From a virus: 14,578 nt of DNA. The stretch lies in UHGV virus genome UHGV-0349585; one strand, written 5' to 3'. Shown one piece after another: positions 1-11,123 of this stretch. The notes under the pieces are model-generated. The model searched no databases. It saw only the letters and a program-made list of their open reading frames with translations, and was not told the origin of the DNA. Within the stretch, counting starts at the first letter, position 1, and the number at the start of each line of letters is the position of its first letter. Made by a program: the position numbers and the translations under genes.

Positions 1-456
1 TCCAGGCTTTGGCTTTAGCCGCTTCGGTTCATCAGCTCTGATGCCAATCCACGTGGTGTAATTCCCTCGCCCGAAATGGTCATCACAGTATTTGGTGAAG
101 GGAACGAGTTTTAATCTGTCAGTGCAGAACGCGCCGCCGACGTATGGAGTGCCATATTTCTTTACCATATCGATAAATGGCTTCAGAACAGGCATTCGCG
201 TCTGAATATCCTTTGGTTCCCATACCGTATAACCATTTGGCTGTCCAAGCTCCGGGTTGATATCAACCTGCAATACGGTGAGCGGTATATCCCAGAACTT
301 CACAACTTCCCTGACAAACCGATATGTCATTGGATGTTCACAACCTGTATCCATGAAAACGTAATGCACGTCTTTACCTGCCCGTCGCTTTTGCTCCATT
401 AGCCAGAGCAAATATGCTGACGTCCTGCCACCGGAGAAACTAACGACATTTATCAT
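1..456 (-). CDS. NinC-position protein with PP-loop (PAPS-reductase-like) N-terminus; partial, C-terminus beyond window edge
   Basis: Minus-strand ATG at 456-454 overlaps ninB stop (ATGA); my own translation begins MINVVSFSGGRTSAYLL, containing an SGGxxS PP-loop motif; open to position 1. Confidence 0.55.
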   Translation of the reverse strand, partial: MINVVSFSGGRTSAYLLWLMEQKRRAGKDVHYVFMDTGCEHPMTYRFVREVVKFWDIPLTVLQVDINPELGQPNGYTVWEPKDIQTRMPVLKPFIDMVKKYGTPYVGGAFCTDRLKLVPFTKYCDDHFGRGNYTTWIGIRADEPKRLKPKPG

Positions 457-893
457 GCAGCCCTGTCTCCCCATCTCGCTTTCCACTCCAGAGCCAGTCG
501 CGCTTCGTCTGACCACTTAACGCCACGCTCTGTACCGAATGCCTGTATAAGCTCTAATAGCTCCGCAAATTCGCCTACACGCATCCTGCTGGTTGACTGG
601 CCTATTACCACAAAGCCATTCCCGTCAAGGTTAGGAACAACGTCCTGCTGCTTTAATGCTGCGGTAAACACACACTTCCAGCTTTCTGCATCCAGCCAGC
701 GACCATGCCATTCAACCTGACGAGAGACGTCACCAAGGCAAGCCCAAAGCTTTCGATTCTGGTCTAAGCTGCGGTTGCGTTCCTGAATGGTTACTACGAT
801 TGGTTTGGTTGGGTCTGGAAGGATTTGCTGTACTGCGTGAATAGCGTTTTGCTGATGTGCTGGGGATCGAATTTCAAAGGTTAGTTTTTTCAT
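453..893 (-). CDS. ninB: NinB (Orf-family recombination mediator), 146 aa
   Basis: ORF-track protein MKKLTFEIRSPAHQQNAIHAVQQ... matches lambda NinB as I recall it, same length and same position upstream of ninC. Confidence 0.85.
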   Translation of the reverse strand: MKKLTFEIRSPAHQQNAIHAVQQILPDPTKPIVVTIQERNRSLDQNRKLWACLGDVSRQVEWHGRWLDAESWKCVFTAALKQQDVVPNLDGNGFVVIGQSTSRMRVGEFAELLELIQAFGTERGVKWSDEARLALEWKARWGDRAA

Positions 894-1086
894 GACTTCC
901 CTCTCTAACAGATTTCAGGTTATTCCACTCCGTTACCGCACTGCGATAATTCGCGGCCGCCACAACAGCGTGGTTAGCGCAGTAGATTTGGCACCCGTTC
1001 TCCATGTCTAATATTGTCGGTGATTTTCCGCACTTACATTTTTTGGCACGCGGTGCGTCTGAACACATTCCGTTAACGGTGTTCAT
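874..1086 (-). CDS. Small Cys-rich (putative zinc-binding) protein in the ren position
   Basis: 70-aa ORF with CKCG...C..YC pattern; GAGGGG-like RBS upstream of ATG at 1086; overlaps ninB start by 20 nt; not lambda Ren. Confidence 0.4.
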   Translation of the reverse strand: MNTVNGMCSDAPRAKKCKCGKSPTILDMENGCQIYCANHAVVAAANYRSAVTEWNNLKSVREGSHEKTNL

Positions 1087-1167: not shown

Positions 1168-2544
1168 TCATACGTCCGCCCCTTGTGCATATCGTCTGCC
1201 ACGTGCAGCGGGTGCATTTGATGCTGTGCAAATCTGTCTGGCTTCATCCTGGTCACATGCAACAAAGTGTCCGTTGCAGAACCGCTGGTAAACCGTACCA
1301 AGCGAGCCAAAACGGTTTTTCGTCACGATGATTTCAGCAAATGGCGCGGCGCTACTGTTCTCGTCATATACAGCTTCCCGATAGAGCATGATGATTGAGT
1401 CTGCGTCCTGTTCAATGCTTCCTGAATCACGCAAATCTGCGTTTGTCGGGCGTTTGTTTGGTCGCTTCTCAACATCGCGTGAAAGCTGACTCAGGGAGAT
1501 AACAGGCGTTTTCAGGTCTTTCGCCATCGCCTTCAGGCTTCCGGAGATGTGAGCAATTGCGAGGTCGTTGCGATCTGCTTTCGGCTTCTCAATCAGGCCA
1601 AGATAATCCGCCATGATGAGTGACAGGTTGGGATTTTCCTGTTTGTGCCGCTCTGCGATTGAGCGAATTTCTTCTACCGATAACCGCGAGGCATCGACTA
1701 CCCATACATCCAAATCTGCAAGCTGACTCATGCCGTTAGCAACACGCGCCCAGCCTTCGTCATCCATCGATGCAGGATTTCGCAGTACGCTAACCGACAT
1801 CCTCCCGGCGTTGGCAATGCTTCGCTCTGCAATCTGCAATGCGCTCATTTCCATTGAGAAAATCAATACCCCGCGCCGGACGTCAGAACCAGGGATAACG
1901 CGGCTTGCAACGCCTTCGGCAATCTTCAGCGCCAGCTCGGTTTTCCCCATACCAGGACGAGCAGCGATTATCACAAGGTCTTCCGCGTTCATCCCTCCGG
2001 TGATAGCGTCAAGTTCTTCGATTCCGGTCTTCAGGGTATCTGACTCTTCTCCGTTCCTCAGACGCCTGTCAAGCGTGTCAGTGTAGTCAGTGATGATTTC
2101 CCCTAACCGTACAGGTTTAACCTCGTCACGGGGCTTTCTGATGGCTGAAAGACGCTTTACAAGTTCATCCATCGCCTGACTCGATGCGTCGATGGTTCCG
2201 CTCTGAATTGGTTCACGCATTTCATCCATGATTTCCAGCACCAGACGGCGGTGATAGTTATCCGCGACCATTCCGGCATATCCCTTCAGGTTTGCGGCAC
2301 TCGGGCAGTTTTTGCTGGTCATCAGGATTGACGTGAAATGCTCCTCTCCGCACGCCTCGGCAACCATCAGCGCGTCGATTAGGTTTCTGTTTCTCGCCTG
2401 CTTGCGGATAACCTCGAAGGCTTTCCGGTAGAGCGGAATTGAAAACGCTTCCGGCTCCAGCGTTGCCAGAACGTCACTGGCAGTTGGTGTTAATCCACCA
2501 ATCAGCAAGCCACCGATAACGCTCGCTTCGATATCCTGTTTCAT
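1168..2544 (-). CDS. Replicative DNA helicase, DnaB family (phage-encoded, P22 gene 12-like rather than lambda P)
   Basis: 458 aa; Walker A ARPGMGKT; DnaB-like N-terminal and RecA-like C-terminal layout; start overlaps O-like stop (ATGA at 2541-2544). Confidence 0.85.
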
Positions 2545-3371
2545 GCAATCCCCCTGTCTGCAAACTTCCCTTCCCGTACTCCCGTTAACGAATCTTCCCT
2601 CAGCAGGTAATCAAAATCTGCCGTCCAGCCCGTGTCGTTGTCTCCGAAGTAAAACGGCTTGGCCTGATGCACAAACGCCCTGACATACGCTCTGAAACCG
2701 TCCACGTTTGGCGTTTTCAGTTGCGGGATGATTTTCTTCAGGCGGCGTTTGCGTTTCTCGTTGACCGCAACAGCATGTGGAAGTCTGTCACCGACTTCGG
2801 TGTTGTAGGCGTTCAGGAAGGATTCGTAGTCGATTCGTTCTGCCTTGCGACGTTCAGGTTTAACCTGCCCATCGCCGCCCCCGTTAGGGGGTAAGGGGGT
2901 ATTTGTATTTATTGTCTTTTGTATATTGTCTTTTGTGTTTGACTGATTCGGTAAATTGCTTTTTACCGATTTGGTGAAGGTTTGTTTTACCGAATTGGTA
3001 AATGTTTTACCGAATCCGTTAACTTTCGTTTTCCACTCGGAAATGTTTGTATTCATACCAACTTGACGCCCCACCTGAATGAGAACTCCCATTCTGATAA
3101 GCTCGTTTTTGGCGGTAGAGCATTTGGTTGGTGCCATGCCAGTGAGTTCAGCGAACTGTTCGTTTCCGATCCAATCTATTTTTTTGTTGTAACCGTATGT
3201 CTTGCGCCACACAGCCATAACAATCAGTAACTGATGTAGAGTAAGTCCAGAAAGCATGGCGGCTTCTAACAGTGTGTTTGCAGTCCGAGTGTAGCCATCT
3301 TCGAGTTCTGCCACGCGATGCTCCACGACCTCCAGTTGAGGCCTGTAATCAGCTAACTTAACGACGCCCAT
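2541..3371 (-). CDS. Replication initiation protein, lambda O N-terminal-domain family, with iteron-encoded repeat segment
   Basis: 276 aa; [22 protein letters not shown] motif typical of phage O-like initiators; internal repeats [16 protein letters not shown] coincide with DNA iterons; AGGAG RBS before ATG at 3371. Confidence 0.8.
2898..3025. repeat. Origin of replication: iterons plus adjacent AT-rich tract inside the O-like gene
   Basis: TTTTACCGAAT core as three direct copies (about 2961, 2986, 3005) plus one inverted copy (2946-2955); AT-rich tract 2898-2940 with TGTCTTTTGT repeated. Confidence 0.65.
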
Positions 3372-3519
3372 GTTTCACTCCTGCTTTGGCTAGTCTGTAA
3401 ACACCAACAAGGCGCTCTGCGAACGCCCTGTTATTTGCTGCGGCTACCACTAATCCCTCAGGTGAATCAGGGTGTCGAATCTCTTCTTTTTCCTGGTATT
3501 TCTTACGACGTTTTGTCAT
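3358..3519 (-). CDS. Small basic hypothetical protein (53 aa) between cII and the O-like gene
   Basis: My own translation [53 protein letters not shown]; AGGAG RBS 6 nt upstream of ATG at 3519; not in the ORF track (<60 aa). Confidence 0.3.
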   Translation of the reverse strand: MTKRRKKYQEKEEIRHPDSPEGLVVAAANNRAFAERLVGVYRLAKAGVKHGRR

Positions 3520-3553
3520 AATTACTCCTGTGGATTGATCCAGTCTTTCTACA

Positions 3554-3832
3554 TCAGGCCTCGAAGAATTCGCCGTTCTTCGGGGCTTTTTCTTTTGTCA
3601 GCATTCTGGCTACTTTCTTAGCCAGTTCCGCCAACTCCTCGTCTTCAACACCCCATTCAAGAACAGCCAGAAGCATTCCCATTTTTGGGATGAAGCTGTC
3701 TTTCCATCGCGAAATTTGCGATTCATTAATCCCTAACGCGTCGGCAACCTTTCGCTGACCACGTACAGCAATTCGATTCAGGATGTTGCTTGTAATTGCA
3801 TTCGCTTTCTTGCGAGTACTTGTAAGTTGCAT
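3554..3832 (-). CDS. cII: CII-like transcriptional activator (92 aa), diverged from lambda CII
   Basis: Conserved core ALGINESQISRWK...FIPKMGMLLAVLEWGV resembles lambda CII; ATG at 3832 preceded by the lambda-like leader CTAAGGAAATACTTACAT; ORF-track frame extends further upstream but this start has the RBS. Confidence 0.75.
   Translation of the reverse strand: MQLTSTRKKANAITSNILNRIAVRGQRKVADALGINESQISRWKDSFIPKMGMLLAVLEWGVEDEELAELAKKVARMLTKEKAPKNGEFFEA
3557..3596 (+). terminator. Strong intrinsic terminator on the strand antisense to cII, overlapping the cII 3' end (oop-RNA-like arrangement)
   Basis: About 11-bp stem GGCCTCGAAGAA/TTCTTCGGGGC with 7-nt loop, followed directly by TTTTTCTTTT on the plus strand. 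Confidence 0.55.
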
Positions 3833-3859
3833 ATGTAAGTATTTCCTTAGATAACAATT

Positions 3860-3900
3860 GATTGAATGTATGCAAATAAATGCATACACCATAGGTGTGG
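3860..3900 (-). terminator. tR1 region hairpin between nutR and cII
   Basis: Perfect 8-bp inverted repeat TGTATGCA/TGCATACA (3867-3888) plus adjacent CACC..GGTG palindrome; matches lambda tR1 region as I recall it. Confidence 0.5.
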
Positions 3901-3950: not shown

Positions 3951-4160
<210 letters not shown>

Positions 4161-4177
4161 TTAGTACATGCAACTAT

Positions 4178-4247
4178 TATCACCGCTAGAGGTAAAATAG
4201 TCAACACGCACGGTGTTAGATATTTATCCCTCGCGGTGATAGATTTA
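4178..4247. promoter_or_regulatory. OR1-OR2-OR3 operators with divergent pR (toward cro) and pRM (toward cI)
   Basis: 17-bp operators at 4178-4194 (OR1), 4202-4218 (OR2), 4225-4241 (OR3); pR -35 and -10 as AGTCAA and ATTATC on the plus strand; pRM -35 TAGATA (4217-4222) and -10 GATTTA (4242-4247); cI ATG at 4252 is leaderless. Confidence 0.85.
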
Positions 4248-4248
4248 A

Positions 4249-4965
<717 letters not shown>

Positions 4966-5990: not shown

Positions 5991-6140
5991 CCTCTCGCCC
6001 CAAAAAAAACGCATAACCAATTGTATTTATTTCAAAATTAATAGATACAACTCACTAAACATCGCAATTCAGATCTCTCGATCACCTTCCCAATCCACAC
6101 AACCCTGCAAAAAATAAATCTATATAAAAAACATACAGAT

Positions 6141-6203
6141 AACCATCTGCGGTGATAAATTATCTCTGGCGGTGTTGACATAAATACCACTGGCGGTGAT
6201 ACT
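6141..6203 (+). promoter_or_regulatory. OL3-OL2-OL1 operators and pL promoter
   Basis: 17-bp operators at 6141-6157, 6161-6177, 6185-6201; -35 TTGACA (6175-6180); -10 GATACT (6198-6203). Confidence 0.9.
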
Positions 6204-6273: not shown

Positions 6274-6430
6274 AGCATTCAAAGCAGAAGGCTTTGGTGT
6301 GTGTGATACGAAACGAAGCATTGGCCGGAAGTGCGAATCCGGATTAGCTGCCAATGTGCCATTGCGGGGTGTTTTCGTTCAGGACTACGACTCCCACACA
6401 CAACCAAAGCTAACTGACAGGAGAATCCAG

Positions 6431-6757
6431 ATGGATGCACAAACACGCCGCCGCGAACGTCGCGCAGAGAAACAGGCTCAATGGAAAGCAGCAAATCCCC
6501 TGTTGGTTGGGGTAAGCGCAAAACCAGTTAACCGCCCTATTCTCTCGCTGAATCGCAAACCGAAATCACGAGTAGAAAGCGCACTGAATCCGATAGACCT
6601 TACAGTGCTGGCTGAATACCACGAACAGATTGAAAGCAACCTGCAACGTATTGAGCGCAAGAATCAGCGCACATGGTACAGCAAGCCACGCAGTGAAATG
6701 GGTGTGACTTGTGTTGGTCGCCAGAAAATGAAATTAGGCAGCAAACCACTTATTTGA
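6431..6757 (+). CDS. N: N antitermination protein (108 aa), lambda-like with a divergent C-terminus
   Basis: MDAQTRRRERRAEKQAQWKAANPLLVGVSAKPVNRPILSLNRKPK... with Arg-rich N-terminal motif; AGGAG RBS before ATG at 6431; ORF-track frame 6299-6757 is an upstream extension into the leader. Confidence 0.9.
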   Translation: MDAQTRRRERRAEKQAQWKAANPLLVGVSAKPVNRPILSLNRKPKSRVESALNPIDLTVLAEYHEQIESNLQRIERKNQRTWYSKPRSEMGVTCVGRQKMKLGSKPLI

Positions 6758-8895: not shown

Positions 8896-9603
8896 ATGGA
8901 TTTGAACAAATTCGATGAGCCATTCAGCCCCGAAGATATCGAATGGCGAATACAGCAAAGCGGTAAAACACGCGATGGCAAGGTGTGGGCTATGGTGCTG
9001 GCTTATGTCACGAACCGGGCAATCATGAAACGCCTGGATGATGTTTGCGGCAAAGCAGGATGGCGCAATGAATACCGCGATATTCCCAACAACGGCGGAG
9101 TTGAATGCGGCATATCAATCAAGATTGATTCCGAATGGGTAACCAAATGGGATGCTGCTGAAAACACGCAGGTAGAAGCCGTCAAAGGTGGTCGTTCCGG
9201 TGCAATGAAGCGTGCTGCCGTTCAGTGGGGAATCGGTCGGTATCTGTATAACCTTGAGGAAGGTTTCGCACAAACATCTCTCGACAAAAAGCAGGGATGG
9301 CACAGGGCAAAACTCAAGGATGGAACAGGATTTTACTGGCTCCCTCCATCGCTGCCGGGCTGGGCAATCCCAGCATCAGATAACAAACCATCACCAGAAA
9401 ATACCAACCAGAAATCTCCATCGGTTGACTGCGAACAAATCCTGAAAGACTTCAGCGATTATGCAGCGACAGAAACTGACAAGAAAAAACTCATCGAGCG
9501 TTATCAGCATGACTGGCAATTAATGGCTGGAAACGAGGAGGCGCAGGCTAAATGCGTTCAGGTAATGAACATCAGAGTTAACGAGCTAAAACAGGCGGCA
9601 TAA
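8896..9603 (+). CDS. Single-strand annealing protein, Rad52/Sak-like family (235 aa)
   Basis: RAAVQWGIGRYLY motif and overall size and layout resemble phage Rad52-family annealing proteins; GAGGTG RBS; directly precedes ssb. Confidence 0.7.
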   Translation: MDLNKFDEPFSPEDIEWRIQQSGKTRDGKVWAMVLAYVTNRAIMKRLDDVCGKAGWRNEYRDIPNNGGVECGISIKIDSEWVTKWDAAENTQVEAVKGGRSGAMKRAAVQWGIGRYLYNLEEGFAQTSLDKKQGWHRAKLKDGTGFYWLPPSLPGWAIPASDNKPSPENTNQKSPSVDCEQILKDFSDYAATETDKKKLIERYQHDWQLMAGNEEAQAKCVQVMNIRVNELKQAA

Positions 9604-10077
9604 ATGGCAAGCAGAGGCGTAAATAAGGTGATCATTATTGGTCGCCTTGGGCATGATCCAGAAATCAGATATTCACCATCAGGAACGGCATTTGCAAACC
9701 TTACAGTTGCTACGTCAGAACAATGGCGTGATAAGCAAACTGGAGAGCAAAAGGAGCAGACGGAGTGGCACCGCGTGGTAATGAGCGGGAAACTGGCAGA
9801 AATTGCCAGCGAATATCTGCGAAAAGGCTCTGAGGTTTATCTTGAAGGAAAATTGCGGACAAGAAAATGGCAGGATCAAAGCGGACAGGATAGGTTCACT
9901 ACCGAAGTCATCGTGGGCGTTGGTGGAACCATGCAAATGCTTGGTGGCAAGCAAGGAGGCAATGAACAGTCTTCACCTCAGCGAAATAATGGTCATCAAC
10001 AAAGACAGCAACCTCAGCAGCATGGAAATCACAGCGAACCACCTATGAACTTCGACGATTCGGATATTCCGTTCTAG
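9604..10077 (+). CDS. ssb: Single-stranded DNA-binding protein
   Basis: OB-fold N-terminus ([18 protein letters not shown]...), Gly/Gln-rich linker and acidic tail DDSDIPF. Confidence 0.9.
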
Positions 10078-10086
10078 GAGCTGAAT

Positions 10087-10566
10087 ATGAAAATCTGCTC
10101 AAGATGCCATCAACAGAAGGAAGAAAGGGACTTTCAAATCAGAAGAGCATCCAGAGATGGATTAACTGCCGCTTGCCGGGCTTGCCTGGCTGAATATGAC
10201 AAAGAGCGCGCGGGATTGCCACATCGAGTATCAGCAAGGAGAGAATATCAATCATCGGAACGCGGCAGAGAACGGTGTAACGCAGCCAAAAAGCGGTTCA
10301 TTCAGAGCAACCCATGGAAAAGAAAAGCCCACATCATCGTGGGTAATTTTTTGCGCGACGGTAAGCTAATCCGACCACCACAATGTGAGTGCTGCGGATC
10401 AGAATGTAAACCACAGGCGCACCACTGCGACTACAGCAAACCAACCGATGTGATGTGGCTCTGCAAGTCATGTCATGTCGAGTGGCACAAACATAACAAA
10501 CCTATCTACCCAGACGAGGAGCCAGTAACTCTCCCCTTCCCTCGTCACGCTATTCACGCAATTTAA
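10087..10566 (+). CDS. HNH-endonuclease-like zinc-binding protein (159 aa)
   Basis: Two Cys clusters (CSRCH...CRAC and CECCGSEC...CKSCH) with an HH...WH arrangement typical of HNH nucleases; GGAG RBS. Confidence 0.6.
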   Translation: MKICSRCHQQKEERDFQIRRASRDGLTAACRACLAEYDKERAGLPHRVSARREYQSSERGRERCNAAKKRFIQSNPWKRKAHIIVGNFLRDGKLIRPPQCECCGSECKPQAHHCDYSKPTDVMWLCKSCHVEWHKHNKPIYPDEEPVTLPFPRHAIHAI

Positions 10567-10574
10567 GGACTTAC

Positions 10575-11123
10575 ATGAATCACTTGATGGTTGACCTTGA
10601 AACAATGGGCAACGGGCCATACGCGCCAGTTATTTCTATTGGGTCGGTATTCTTTGACCCGAATACCGGAGAAACAGGAGAAGAGTTCTCGGTAAATATC
10701 TCGCTTGAATCATCAATGCGATATCGAGCGCGTCCTGACGCTTCAACGATTTTATGGTGGCTGGAACAGAGTGAAGAAGCCAGAAAATCGCTAACCAGCA
10801 ACACTCAGGAGCTTTCAACGGCTCTTTCATGGTTATCTGAATTCATCATAAAGAACGCTAACCACAAATTCGTTCAGGTTTGGGGGAATGGAGCATCATT
10901 TGACTGCGTTATTCTCCGAAACAGTTATTCGCTGACAGGGCAGCCAGTTCCGTGGCAGTGGTGGAATGACCGCGACGTAAGAACAATCGTCGAACTTGGG
11001 AAGGTAATAGGATTCGACCCTAAGCGAGATATGCCATTCAAAGGAACTCGCCACAACGCGCTTGATGATGCCATTCACCAAGCCAAATACGTTTCAGCGA
11101 TCTGGAAAAAGTTAGCTAAATAA
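10575..11123 (+). CDS. DEDDh-type 3'-5' exonuclease (DnaQ-like fold), 182 aa
   Basis: Exo I-like motif MVDLETMG near the N-terminus and Exo III-like motif H-x4-D (HNALDDAIH) near the C-terminus; AAGGA RBS. Confidence 0.7.
   Translation: MNHLMVDLETMGNGPYAPVISIGSVFFDPNTGETGEEFSVNISLESSMRYRARPDASTILWWLEQSEEARKSLTSNTQELSTALSWLSEFIIKNANHKFVQVWGNGASFDCVILRNSYSLTGQPVPWQWWNDRDVRTIVELGKVIGFDPKRDMPFKGTRHNALDDAIHQAKYVSAIWKKLAK

What the first reader, a model, noticed from the sequence alone, without database searches (positions are those of the whole stretch)
2898..3025. Iteron origin embedded in the O-like initiator gene
Three direct and one inverted copy of TTTTACCGAAT, with an adjacent AT-rich tract containing its own short repeats, lie inside the initiator coding sequence and encode the repeated KTFT.SVK peptide segment. 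This is the lambda-style ori-within-O arrangement, but paired with a DnaB-type helicase rather than lambda P. Replisome loading therefore probably bypasses host DnaB and DnaC.
Basis: partly seen in the sequence, partly recalled or inferred. Interest (0 to 1): 0.3.

Follow-up and report, generated by a model that had tools for sequence, protein, structure and literature searches.

The report
P22-type phage replication origin inside O gene
This is the well-known replication origin of P22-like lambdoid phages: four initiator-binding repeats plus an easily melted AT-rich stretch inside the initiator gene, next to a phage-encoded DnaB-type helicase; it is real but ordinary.

Summary
They give 8 strand matches where 0.01 is expected. 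A 39-bp AT-rich tract (2900-2938) follows, then a G/C-rich inverted repeat (2878-2899). All of it lies in the middle of the minus-strand O-like initiator gene (2541-3371).

The iteron block is about 93% identical to phage P22 gene 18. The downstream helicase is 90% amino-acid identical to P22 gp12. Iteron positions and spacing (20/24/23 bp) match lambda ITN1-4 to within one base, and the AT-rich tract opens with the same bases as lambda's.

Across 85 sequences (window plus 84 loci), iteron type follows the type of the initiator's N-terminal DNA-binding domain in every case. It does not follow the type of the C-terminal domain or helicase. Half-site columns are conserved even at third codon positions, so the constraint acts on the DNA.

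The only local feature of note is that this O gene is an HK97/P22/HK97 mosaic. Verdict: already known, low interest.

The parts
3006..3022 (-). Iteron 1, farthest from the AT-rich tract: TTAACGGATTCGGTAAA on the coding (-) strand, O nt 350-366
   Evidence: It sits at the same offset (-82) from the AT-rich tract as lambda ITN1 and HK97 iteron 1.
2986..3002 (-). Iteron 2: TTTACCAATTCGGTAAA, O nt 370-386. This is the best palindrome (14/17 self-complementary).
2962..2978 (-). Iteron 3: TTCACCAAATCGGTAAA, O nt 394-410
2939..2955 (-). Iteron 4, next to the AT-rich tract: TTTACCGAATCAGTCAA, O nt 417-433.
2900..2938 (.). AT-rich tract, the presumed DNA-unwinding element. It holds the 13-nt direct repeat TATTGTCTTTTGT at 2910-2922 and 2924-2936.
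   Evidence: About 75% AT and the least stable 40-mer within the O gene. Invariant between the window, P22 and HK97 and present in all 84 fetched loci. It opens with the same ACACAAAAGACA...ACAAAAGA as the lambda AT-rich tract. It stays unpaired in the single-strand DNA fold.
2878..2899 (.). G/C-rich element CCCCCGTTAGGGGGTAAGGGGG. It contains a 5-bp inverted repeat and bounds the AT-rich tract on the side away from the iterons.
   Evidence: Read directly from the sequence. A hairpin is predicted. It is conserved in P22 and HK97. Its position is analogous to the palindrome to the right of the lambda AT-rich tract; that comparison rests on my own knowledge.
2541..3371 (-). O-like replication initiator gene (276 aa). 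It is a mosaic: O nt 1-70 are HK97-type, about 70-430 P22-type, 430-495 shared by all, and 495-831 HK97-type.
   Evidence: Pfam Phage_rep_O. 80% amino-acid identity to P22 gp18. 41% identity to lambda O over aa 17-152 only. Three-way alignment.
3033..3317 (-). Coding region for the N-terminal Phage_rep_O domain (aa 19-113), the presumed iteron-recognition domain
   Evidence: Its type co-varies 85/85 with iteron type.
2541..2876 (-). Coding region for the C-terminal domain of the initiator (about aa 166-276), the presumed helicase-recruiting domain
   Evidence: No similarity to the lambda O C-terminus. About 97% nucleotide identity to HK97. Its type co-varies with helicase type. The recruiting role is an inference.
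1168..2544 (-). DnaB-type replicative helicase gene (458 aa). Its start overlaps the O stop codon (ATGA).
   Evidence: Pfam DnaB and DnaB_C. 90% identical to P22 gp12. Matches E. coli-type DnaB structures over nearly full length at E 2e-66.
4176..4204 (-). pR-like promoter (TTGACT-17-GATAAT) upstream of cro. It would transcribe cro-cII-orf53-O-helicase and so read through the origin.
   Evidence: Consensus scan only. It lies between the cI (4252-4965, +) and cro (3951-4151, -) genes identified. A role in activating the origin by transcription is inferred by analogy with lambda (PMC5043065).

Best explanation
The region is a P22-type version of the lambdoid phage replication origin, and it sits within the initiator's own coding sequence. 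Dimers of the O-like initiator are inferred to bind the four dyad-symmetric iterons (2939-3022) through the N-terminal Phage_rep_O domain and to form an O-some-like complex. That complex, helped by negative supercoiling and rightward (pR) transcription through the gene, would melt the adjacent AT-rich tract (2900-2938). The initiator's C-terminal domain would then bring in the phage's own DnaB-type helicase (1168-2544) in place of a lambda-P/host-DnaB complex, so host DnaB and a DnaC-type loader are probably not needed. Shown here: the anatomy, the homology to P22, HK97 and lambda, the DNA-level constraint, and the co-variation of iterons with the N-terminal domain. Inferred: binding, melting, helicase recruitment and host-factor independence.
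For: - Repeat statistics: 8 strand matches to the 17-mer against 0.01 expected, and the 11-mer gives 5 against 0.36.
- Gene content: Phage_rep_O initiator, DnaB-type helicase, and cII, cro, cI and NinB neighbours.
- Homology: the iteron block is 93% identical to P22 gene 18. The initiator is 80% identical to gp18 and the helicase 90% identical to gp12.
- Geometry: iteron offsets from the AT-rich tract (-82, -62, -38, -15) and spacing 20/24/23 are the same in the window, HK97 and lambda, whose iterons are annotated in NC_001416. Only the half-site sequence differs: TTTACC/GGTAAA here, TTAGCC/GGCTAA in HK97 and TCCCTC/GAGGGA in lambda.
- Natural domain swaps: in 85 sequences, N-domain type equals iteron type in all 85, while P22-type iterons occur with either C-domain/helicase type (51 with HK97-type, 16 with P22-type).
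- DNA-level constraint: among 35 distinct P22-type sequences, half-site columns vary in 7/48. Their third codon positions vary in 5/16 against 80/91 in the N-domain (Fisher p 6e-6). Inter-iteron columns vary in 14/21.
- The AT-rich tract is the least stable 40-mer in the gene and is invariant across types.
- Literature: P22 gene 18 contains four ~20-bp repeats and gp12 is a DnaB-type helicase (PMC8022706). A lambda hybrid carrying P22 18-12 replicates in E. coli and is indifferent to the dnaB-GrpD55 allele and to ori-lambda-directed inhibition (PMC3349717). Ori-lambda anatomy and mechanism are described in PMC7466680 and PMC5043065.
Against: - Nothing here shows binding, melting or replication for this particular sequence. 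All function is carried over from P22 and lambda by homology.
- The 85 sequences were gathered with patterns from this protein, so they are a biased and closely related sample. The N-domain and the iterons are physically adjacent, so part of their linkage could be simple co-inheritance.
- The AT-rich tract is not the most AT-rich stretch of the whole window; that is around 6000-6150.
- The single-sequence structure model of the initiator was uninformative (pLDDT 40).
- Independence from DnaC rests on my recollection of 1984 biochemistry on gp12, not on a tool result.
Confidence: 0.9

Rival explanations
1. The repeats are selected at the protein level, as a repeated KTFTxSVK peptide in a flexible linker. 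The DNA repeats would be only their shadow, and the origin would lie elsewhere.
For: The repeats do encode a repeated peptide. No origin assay is available for this sequence.
Against: - Each unit is a DNA palindrome, which a peptide repeat does not require.
- Third codon positions inside the half-sites are conserved (5/16 variable against 80/91 in the N-domain), whereas the codons between iterons change amino acids freely, for example N/R, Q/L and S/T between the window and P22.
- HK97 and lambda carry different repeats, encoding different peptides, in exactly the same DNA register.
Confidence: 0.02
2. The iterons are mainly regulatory initiator-binding sites, serving for example in autoregulation, incompatibility or exclusion of related phages. 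They would not be the site where replication starts.
For: Extra copies of ori-lambda iterons on plasmids do inhibit rep-lambda phages (PMC3349717), so iteron arrays can act in trans.
Against: - The full ori-lambda layout is present: four iterons, then the AT-rich tract, then a G/C-rich inverted repeat, at positions matching lambda to within one base.
- The AT-rich tract is invariant across specificity types, as expected for an unwinding element and not for a purely regulatory site.
- The two roles are not mutually exclusive.
Confidence: 0.04
3. The structure is a genuine origin by descent but is inactive in this copy, for example a decayed prophage or a mismatched mosaic initiator whose HK97-type ends do not work with the P22-type core.
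For: The O gene is a three-part mosaic. The window resembles resident prophages: the same gene is found in 34 of 5426 complete E. coli genomes.
Against: - Both reading frames are intact.
- 100%-identical initiator proteins recur on about 20 independent IMG/VR contigs.
- The same P22-core/HK97-C-terminus combination is found in 51 sequences, including sequenced Salmonella phages P6 and BTP1. This argues for a working and successful combination.
- P22 and HK97-type helicases are 90% identical.
Confidence: 0.04

Closest known systems
Phage P22 replication module (gene 18 initiator with internal ori, gene 12 DnaB-type helicase)
   Same: The iteron block is 93% identical, with the same four 17-bp palindromes. 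The AT-rich tract and G/C element are identical. The initiator is 80% and the helicase 90% amino-acid identical. Gene order orf48/53-O-helicase-nin is the same.
   Different: The first ~23 codons and the C-terminal domain of the initiator are HK97-type; the C-domain is only about 58% identical to P22 at the nucleotide level. Four substitutions fall in the iteron centres or between iterons and none falls in a half-site. The immunity region is lambda/HK97-like, not P22-like.
Phage HK97 (also HK544 and many Stx phages) O/P module
   Same: About 97.5% nucleotide identity over the helicase, the initiator's C-terminal domain, the AT-rich tract and the first 70 nt of O. The iteron register is the same.
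   Different: HK97 has a different N-terminal DNA-binding domain (26-28% ungapped nucleotide identity) and different iterons, TTAGCY-N5-RGCTAA. The origin specificity is therefore predicted to differ.
Phage lambda ori (ITN1-4 plus AT-rich tract inside gene O) with O and P
   Same: Four dyad-symmetric iterons lie at O nt 349-433, against 350-433 here, with spacing 20/24/23. An AT-rich tract of about 40 bp follows immediately and opens with the same ACACAAAAGACA. The N-terminal domains are 41% identical.
   Different: The iteron sequence is TCCCTC...GAGGGA. The C-terminal domain is unrelated. The partner gene is P, a loader for host DnaB, not a helicase (PMC5043065).
Iteron-type plasmid origins (P1, RK2, R6K, pSC101)
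   Same: They also have an array of initiator-binding repeats next to an AT-rich unwinding region (PMC5043065).
   Different: Plasmid iterons are direct repeats bound by monomers and work together with DnaA boxes. Here the units are palindromes, there is no DnaA-box consensus anywhere in the window, and the origin lies inside the initiator gene.

Membership tests
Lambdoid origin within the O gene (ori-lambda type) | Initiator with an N-terminal Phage_rep_O DNA-binding domain | tested here: met
   PF04492, aa 19-113, E 4.2e-36, 123.8 bits against a cutoff of 28.7. 41% identity to lambda O over aa 17-152.
Lambdoid origin within the O gene (ori-lambda type) | Four or more dyad-symmetric iterons of about 18 bp in the middle of the gene, just after the DNA-binding domain | tested here: met
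   Four 17-bp imperfect palindromes at O nt 350-433. 8 strand matches against 0.01 expected.
Lambdoid origin within the O gene (ori-lambda type) | Iteron register and spacing as in lambda ITN1-4 | tested here: met
   Spacing is 20/24/23 in both. Positions are O nt 349-433 in lambda and 350-433 here.
Lambdoid origin within the O gene (ori-lambda type) | AT-rich tract of about 40 bp directly on the promoter-distal side of the iterons | tested here: met
   2900-2938 is about 75% AT and is the least stable 40-mer in the gene. Its first ~24 nt are near-identical to lambda's.
Lambdoid origin within the O gene (ori-lambda type) | The initiator binds the iterons and opens the AT-rich tract, and the fragment supports replication | not testable with these tools
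   Only indirect support is available: co-variation of N-domain and iteron type in 85/85 sequences and DNA-level conservation of the half-sites.
P22 gene 18/12-type replication module | Iterons of P22 sequence type (TTTACC-N5-GGTAAA) | tested here: met
   93% identity to P22 over the 90-nt iteron block. All half-sites are identical to P22.
P22 gene 18/12-type replication module | Initiator homologous to gp18 over its full length | tested here: met
   80% identity over aa 10-268, E 7e-160. The N-terminal half is about 95% identical and the C-terminal half about 60%.
P22 gene 18/12-type replication module | The gene immediately downstream encodes a gp12-type (DnaB-family) helicase, not a lambda-P-type loader | tested here: met
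   DnaB N- and C-terminal domains. 90% identity to gp12 with no gaps. E 2e-66 to E. coli-type DnaB structures.
P22 gene 18/12-type replication module | Replication independent of host DnaB and DnaC | not testable with these tools
   In the literature, the lambda(18,12)P22 hybrid is unaffected by dnaB-GrpD55 (PMC3349717) and gp12 is called a DnaB-type helicase (PMC8022706). Independence from DnaC rests on my recollection of Wickner 1984.
Plasmid-type iteron origin (Rep monomers plus DnaA) | Direct, non-palindromic repeats together with DnaA boxes | tested here: not met
   The units are palindromic. There is no TTWTNCACA anywhere in the window.

The most novel reading that the evidence does not exclude
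The most novel reading not excluded concerns the invariant ~66-nt AT-rich/G-C element (2878-2938) and a second conserved patch near O nt 31-65. These may act as recombination joints through which an 'origin-specificity cassette' (DNA-binding domain plus its iterons) is exchanged between lambdoid phages independently of the helicase-interaction cassette. This window would then be a natural HK97/P22/HK97 triple mosaic produced in that way. This would illustrate a principle of lambdoid modular evolution that has long been proposed; it would not establish a new one.
Probability: 0.6. Interest if true: 0.2.

Novelty: already known. Interest (0 to 1): 0.08.

Why it matters
Its value is for annotation. 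It fixes the replication origin of this phage or prophage at window 2878-3022 and predicts P22-type origin specificity, despite the HK97-like helicase, initiator C-terminus and immunity region. It also gives a clean natural domain-swap data set: iteron type follows the N-terminal domain and not the C-terminal domain or helicase. That data set re-confirms the textbook two-domain model of O-type initiators. It opens no new question.

Tried and rejected
- Rfam scan of the whole window found no family at gathering score. The origin region is not a known RNA element, and oop RNA was not detected this way.
- A fifth iteron-like site at 161-177 (3 mismatches, 0.01 expected) looked like a possible outlying initiator site. 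It lies in ninC, and the identical 17-mer is present in lambda ninC, which uses different iterons. I rejected it as coincidence.
- The single-sequence AlphaFold model of the initiator, meant to show a structured N-domain and a disordered linker over the origin, gave mean pLDDT 40 and is uninformative.
- The repeat finder on 2880-2960 reported nothing, although the 13-nt repeat is plainly there by exact string search.
- A DnaA-box search found none in the window, so a DnaA-assisted plasmid-type origin was rejected.
- Sequence search of the PDB with the initiator found no solved relative.
- Literature searches for the primary P22 papers (Backhaus & Petri 1984; Wickner 1984; Vander Byl & Kropinski 2000) found nothing held in the library. 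Statements about them are marked as recollection.

Full report
**What is there**

The finding lies on the minus strand of a lambdoid early region.
- ORF 2541-3371 (-) encodes a 276-aa protein with a Pfam Phage_rep_O domain at aa 19-113 (E 4e-36).
- Its stop codon overlaps the start of ORF 1168-2544 (-), a 458-aa protein with DnaB N- and C-terminal domains (E 4e-13 and 1e-77).
- Upstream in the direction of transcription lie a 53-aa ORF, cII (3554-3892), a lambda-type cro (3951-4151) and a divergent cI (4252-4965, +). NinB lies downstream of the helicase (453-893).

**Checking the observation**

- It occurs twice exactly (2985, 3005), once with one mismatch (2961), and once inverted with one mismatch (2946-2956).
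- At one mismatch or fewer the window has 5 matches against 0.36 expected, and none of 200 shuffles reached 5. Four of the five cluster within 70 bp.
- Read on the coding strand, these are half-sites of four 17-bp imperfect palindromes: TTAACGGATTCGGTAAA, TTTACCAATTCGGTAAA, TTCACCAAATCGGTAAA and TTTACCGAATCAGTCAA.
- They lie at window 3006-3022, 2986-3002, 2962-2978 and 2939-2955, which is O nt 350-366, 370-386, 394-410 and 417-433, with start-to-start spacing 20, 24 and 23.
- Against the consensus TTTACCGAATCGGTAAA they give 8 strand matches with at most 3 mismatches, where shuffles give 0.01.
- The 'inverted copy' is the well-kept left half of the fourth iteron, whose right half is degenerate.
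- Next comes an AT-rich tract. 2898-2938 is 75.6% AT, with 26 T in 41 nt on the + strand, and carries the 13-nt direct repeat TATTGTCTTTTGT at 2910-2922 and 2924-2936. It is the least stable 40-mer in the O gene.
- A G/C-rich element with a 5-bp inverted repeat follows at 2878-2899.
- The repeats encode [17 protein letters not shown].

**What it is**

BLAST against phage genomes shows three things.
- Window 2853-3100 is 92.4% identical to P22 gene 18.
- Over the full O gene, Salmonella phage P6 is the best match, and BTP1 matches the whole O-helicase pair at 88.9%.
- The helicase, the 3' half of O and the first 70 nt of O are about 97.5% identical to HK97, HK544 and many Stx phages.

Three-way alignment resolves a clean mosaic.
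- O nt 1-70 are HK97-type.
- O nt about 70-430 (DNA-binding domain plus iterons) are P22-type.
- O nt 430-495 (AT-rich tract plus G/C element) are invariant in all three phages.
- O nt 495-831 and the helicase gene are HK97-type.

At protein level the initiator is 80% identical to P22 gp18 and the helicase 90% identical to P22 gp12, without gaps. The helicase also aligns over nearly its full length with solved DnaB structures (E 2e-66).

**Comparison with lambda**

In the lambda reference record the four ori iterons are annotated at O nt 349-366, 369-386, 393-410 and 416-433, with spacing 20/24/23. This matches the window to within one base.
- The lambda AT-rich tract begins ACACAAAAGACACTATTACAAAAGA. 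The window's begins ACACAAAAGACAATATACAAAAGA.
- At the same four offsets from that tract (-82, -62, -38, -15), the window has TTTACC-N5-GGTAAA, HK97 has TTAGCC-N5-GGCTAA and lambda has TCCCTC...GAGGGA.

The origin scaffold is therefore conserved, and only the recognition sequence differs. The initiator's N-terminal domain differs with it. That domain is 41% identical between the window and lambda, while the C-terminal domains are unrelated.

**Evidence that the repeats act as DNA**

I fetched 80 related loci from IMG/VR and added P22, P6, HK97 and the window.
- All 84 fetched loci carry the AT-rich anchor.
- N-domain type equals iteron type in 85 of 85 sequences, and C-domain type equals helicase type in 85 of 85.
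- P22-type iterons occur with both C-domain/helicase types: 51 with HK97-type (including the window) and 16 with P22-type.
- This is the pattern expected if the N-domain reads the iterons and the C-domain deals with the helicase. The caveats are that the sample is biased and that linked elements are physically adjacent.
- Among 35 distinct P22-type sequences, half-site columns vary in 7/48. Their third codon positions vary in 5/16 against 80/91 in the N-domain (Fisher p 6e-6). Columns between iterons vary in 14/21.
- The four window-versus-P22 differences in this block all fall in iteron centres or between iterons, and they change amino acids.

A peptide-level explanation for the repeats is therefore very unlikely.

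**Mechanism**

By homology with ori-lambda, the proposed steps are as follows (PMC5043065; PMC7466680).
1. Initiator dimers bind the four palindromic iterons.
2. The resulting nucleoprotein complex, together with supercoiling and transcription from the pR-like promoter at 4176-4204, opens the AT-rich tract.
3. The C-terminal domain brings in the helicase. Here the helicase is phage-encoded and DnaB-type, and the module contains no lambda-P or DnaC-like gene.

- P22 gene 18 is described as containing four ~20-bp repeats distinct from lambda's, and gp12 as a DnaB-type helicase (PMC8022706).
- A lambda hybrid in which O-P and ori-lambda are replaced by P22 orf48-18-12 replicates in E. coli. It gives the same burst on a dnaB-GrpD55 host that blocks lambda, and it escapes ori-lambda-directed inhibition (PMC3349717).
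- From memory, and not verified with the tools: Backhaus & Petri (1984, Gene 32:289) sequenced P22 genes 18 and 12 and placed the ori inside gene 18. Wickner (1984, J Biol Chem 259) showed that gp12 has DnaB-like ATPase and primase-supporting activity without DnaC. Work on lambda hybrids by Furth and colleagues in the late 1970s assigned ori specificity to the N-terminal part of O and P specificity to the C-terminal part.

Binding, melting, helicase recruitment and host-factor independence are all inferred for this sequence, not shown.

**Rivals**

- A peptide-only origin for the repeats is contradicted by the dyad symmetry, the third-position conservation and the same register carrying different sequences in HK97 and lambda.
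- A purely regulatory role is contradicted by the complete ori-lambda layout and the invariant unwinding tract.
- A dead origin is unlikely. The frames are intact, identical proteins recur on about 20 IMG/VR contigs, the same gene occurs in 34 of 5426 complete E. coli genomes, and the same mosaic combination occurs in isolated phages P6 and BTP1.
- A plasmid-type, DnaA-assisted origin is not supported, because the window has no DnaA box.

**Dead ends**

- Rfam found nothing.
- The extra iteron-like site at 161-177 is identical in lambda ninC and is a coincidence.
- The single-sequence structure model was uninformative.
- No solved structure of a relative of the initiator exists in the PDB by sequence search.

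**Verdict**

The only local point of note is the HK97/P22/HK97 mosaic of the O gene, with a junction at the invariant AT-rich tract, which is itself an expected feature of lambdoid modular evolution. Novelty: already known. Interest: about 0.08.

Noticed in passing
window 2541-3371 (junctions near 3302-3306 and 2876-2941): The O gene is a three-part mosaic: the first ~23 codons are HK97-type, the DNA-binding domain and iterons are P22-type, and the C-terminal domain is HK97-type. Both junctions coincide with stretches identical in P22 and HK97 (O nt 31-65, and the invariant AT-rich/G-C element), so these look like recombination joints.
   Followed up: partly
window 3521-3597 (+): An oop-like antisense RNA lies here. 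It contains the reverse complement of the conserved pO/oop 5' sequence quoted in PMC3349717 (GACTGGATCAATCCACAGGAGTAATTATG). A strong terminator-like hairpin at 3556-3588 followed by a T-run overlaps the 3' end of cII. Rfam gave no match.
   Followed up: partly
window 161-177: An iteron-like 17-mer (TTTATCGATATGGTAAA on the - strand, 3 mismatches to the consensus, 0.01 expected) lies inside ninC. The identical 17-mer is present in lambda ninC, which uses different iterons, so it is a coincidence of coding sequence.
   Followed up: yes
window about 6000-6150: This is the most AT-rich and least stable DNA of the whole window (up to 81% AT in 43 nt). It lies just upstream of the N-like antiterminator ORF (6299-6757, +). 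Its nature (pL/nutL region, moron boundary or other) was not examined.
   Followed up: no
window 8896-11123 (+): The early-left operon encodes an Erf-like annealing protein (8896-9603), a phage SSB (9604-10077), an endonuclease-like protein (10087-10566) and an exonuclease-like protein (10575-11123). The phage therefore supplies its own SSB as well as its own helicase.
   Followed up: no
window 3358-3519 (-) and 874-1086 (-): Two conserved small ORFs of unknown function flank the replication genes. They match phrog_1331 (53 aa, at the position of P22 orf48 and HK97 gp53, overlapping the O start) and phrog_6308 (70 aa, like HK97 gp60).
   Followed up: no
whole window: There are no matches to the DnaA-box consensus TTWTNCACA on either strand (1.6 expected). 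This is not significant.
   Followed up: yes
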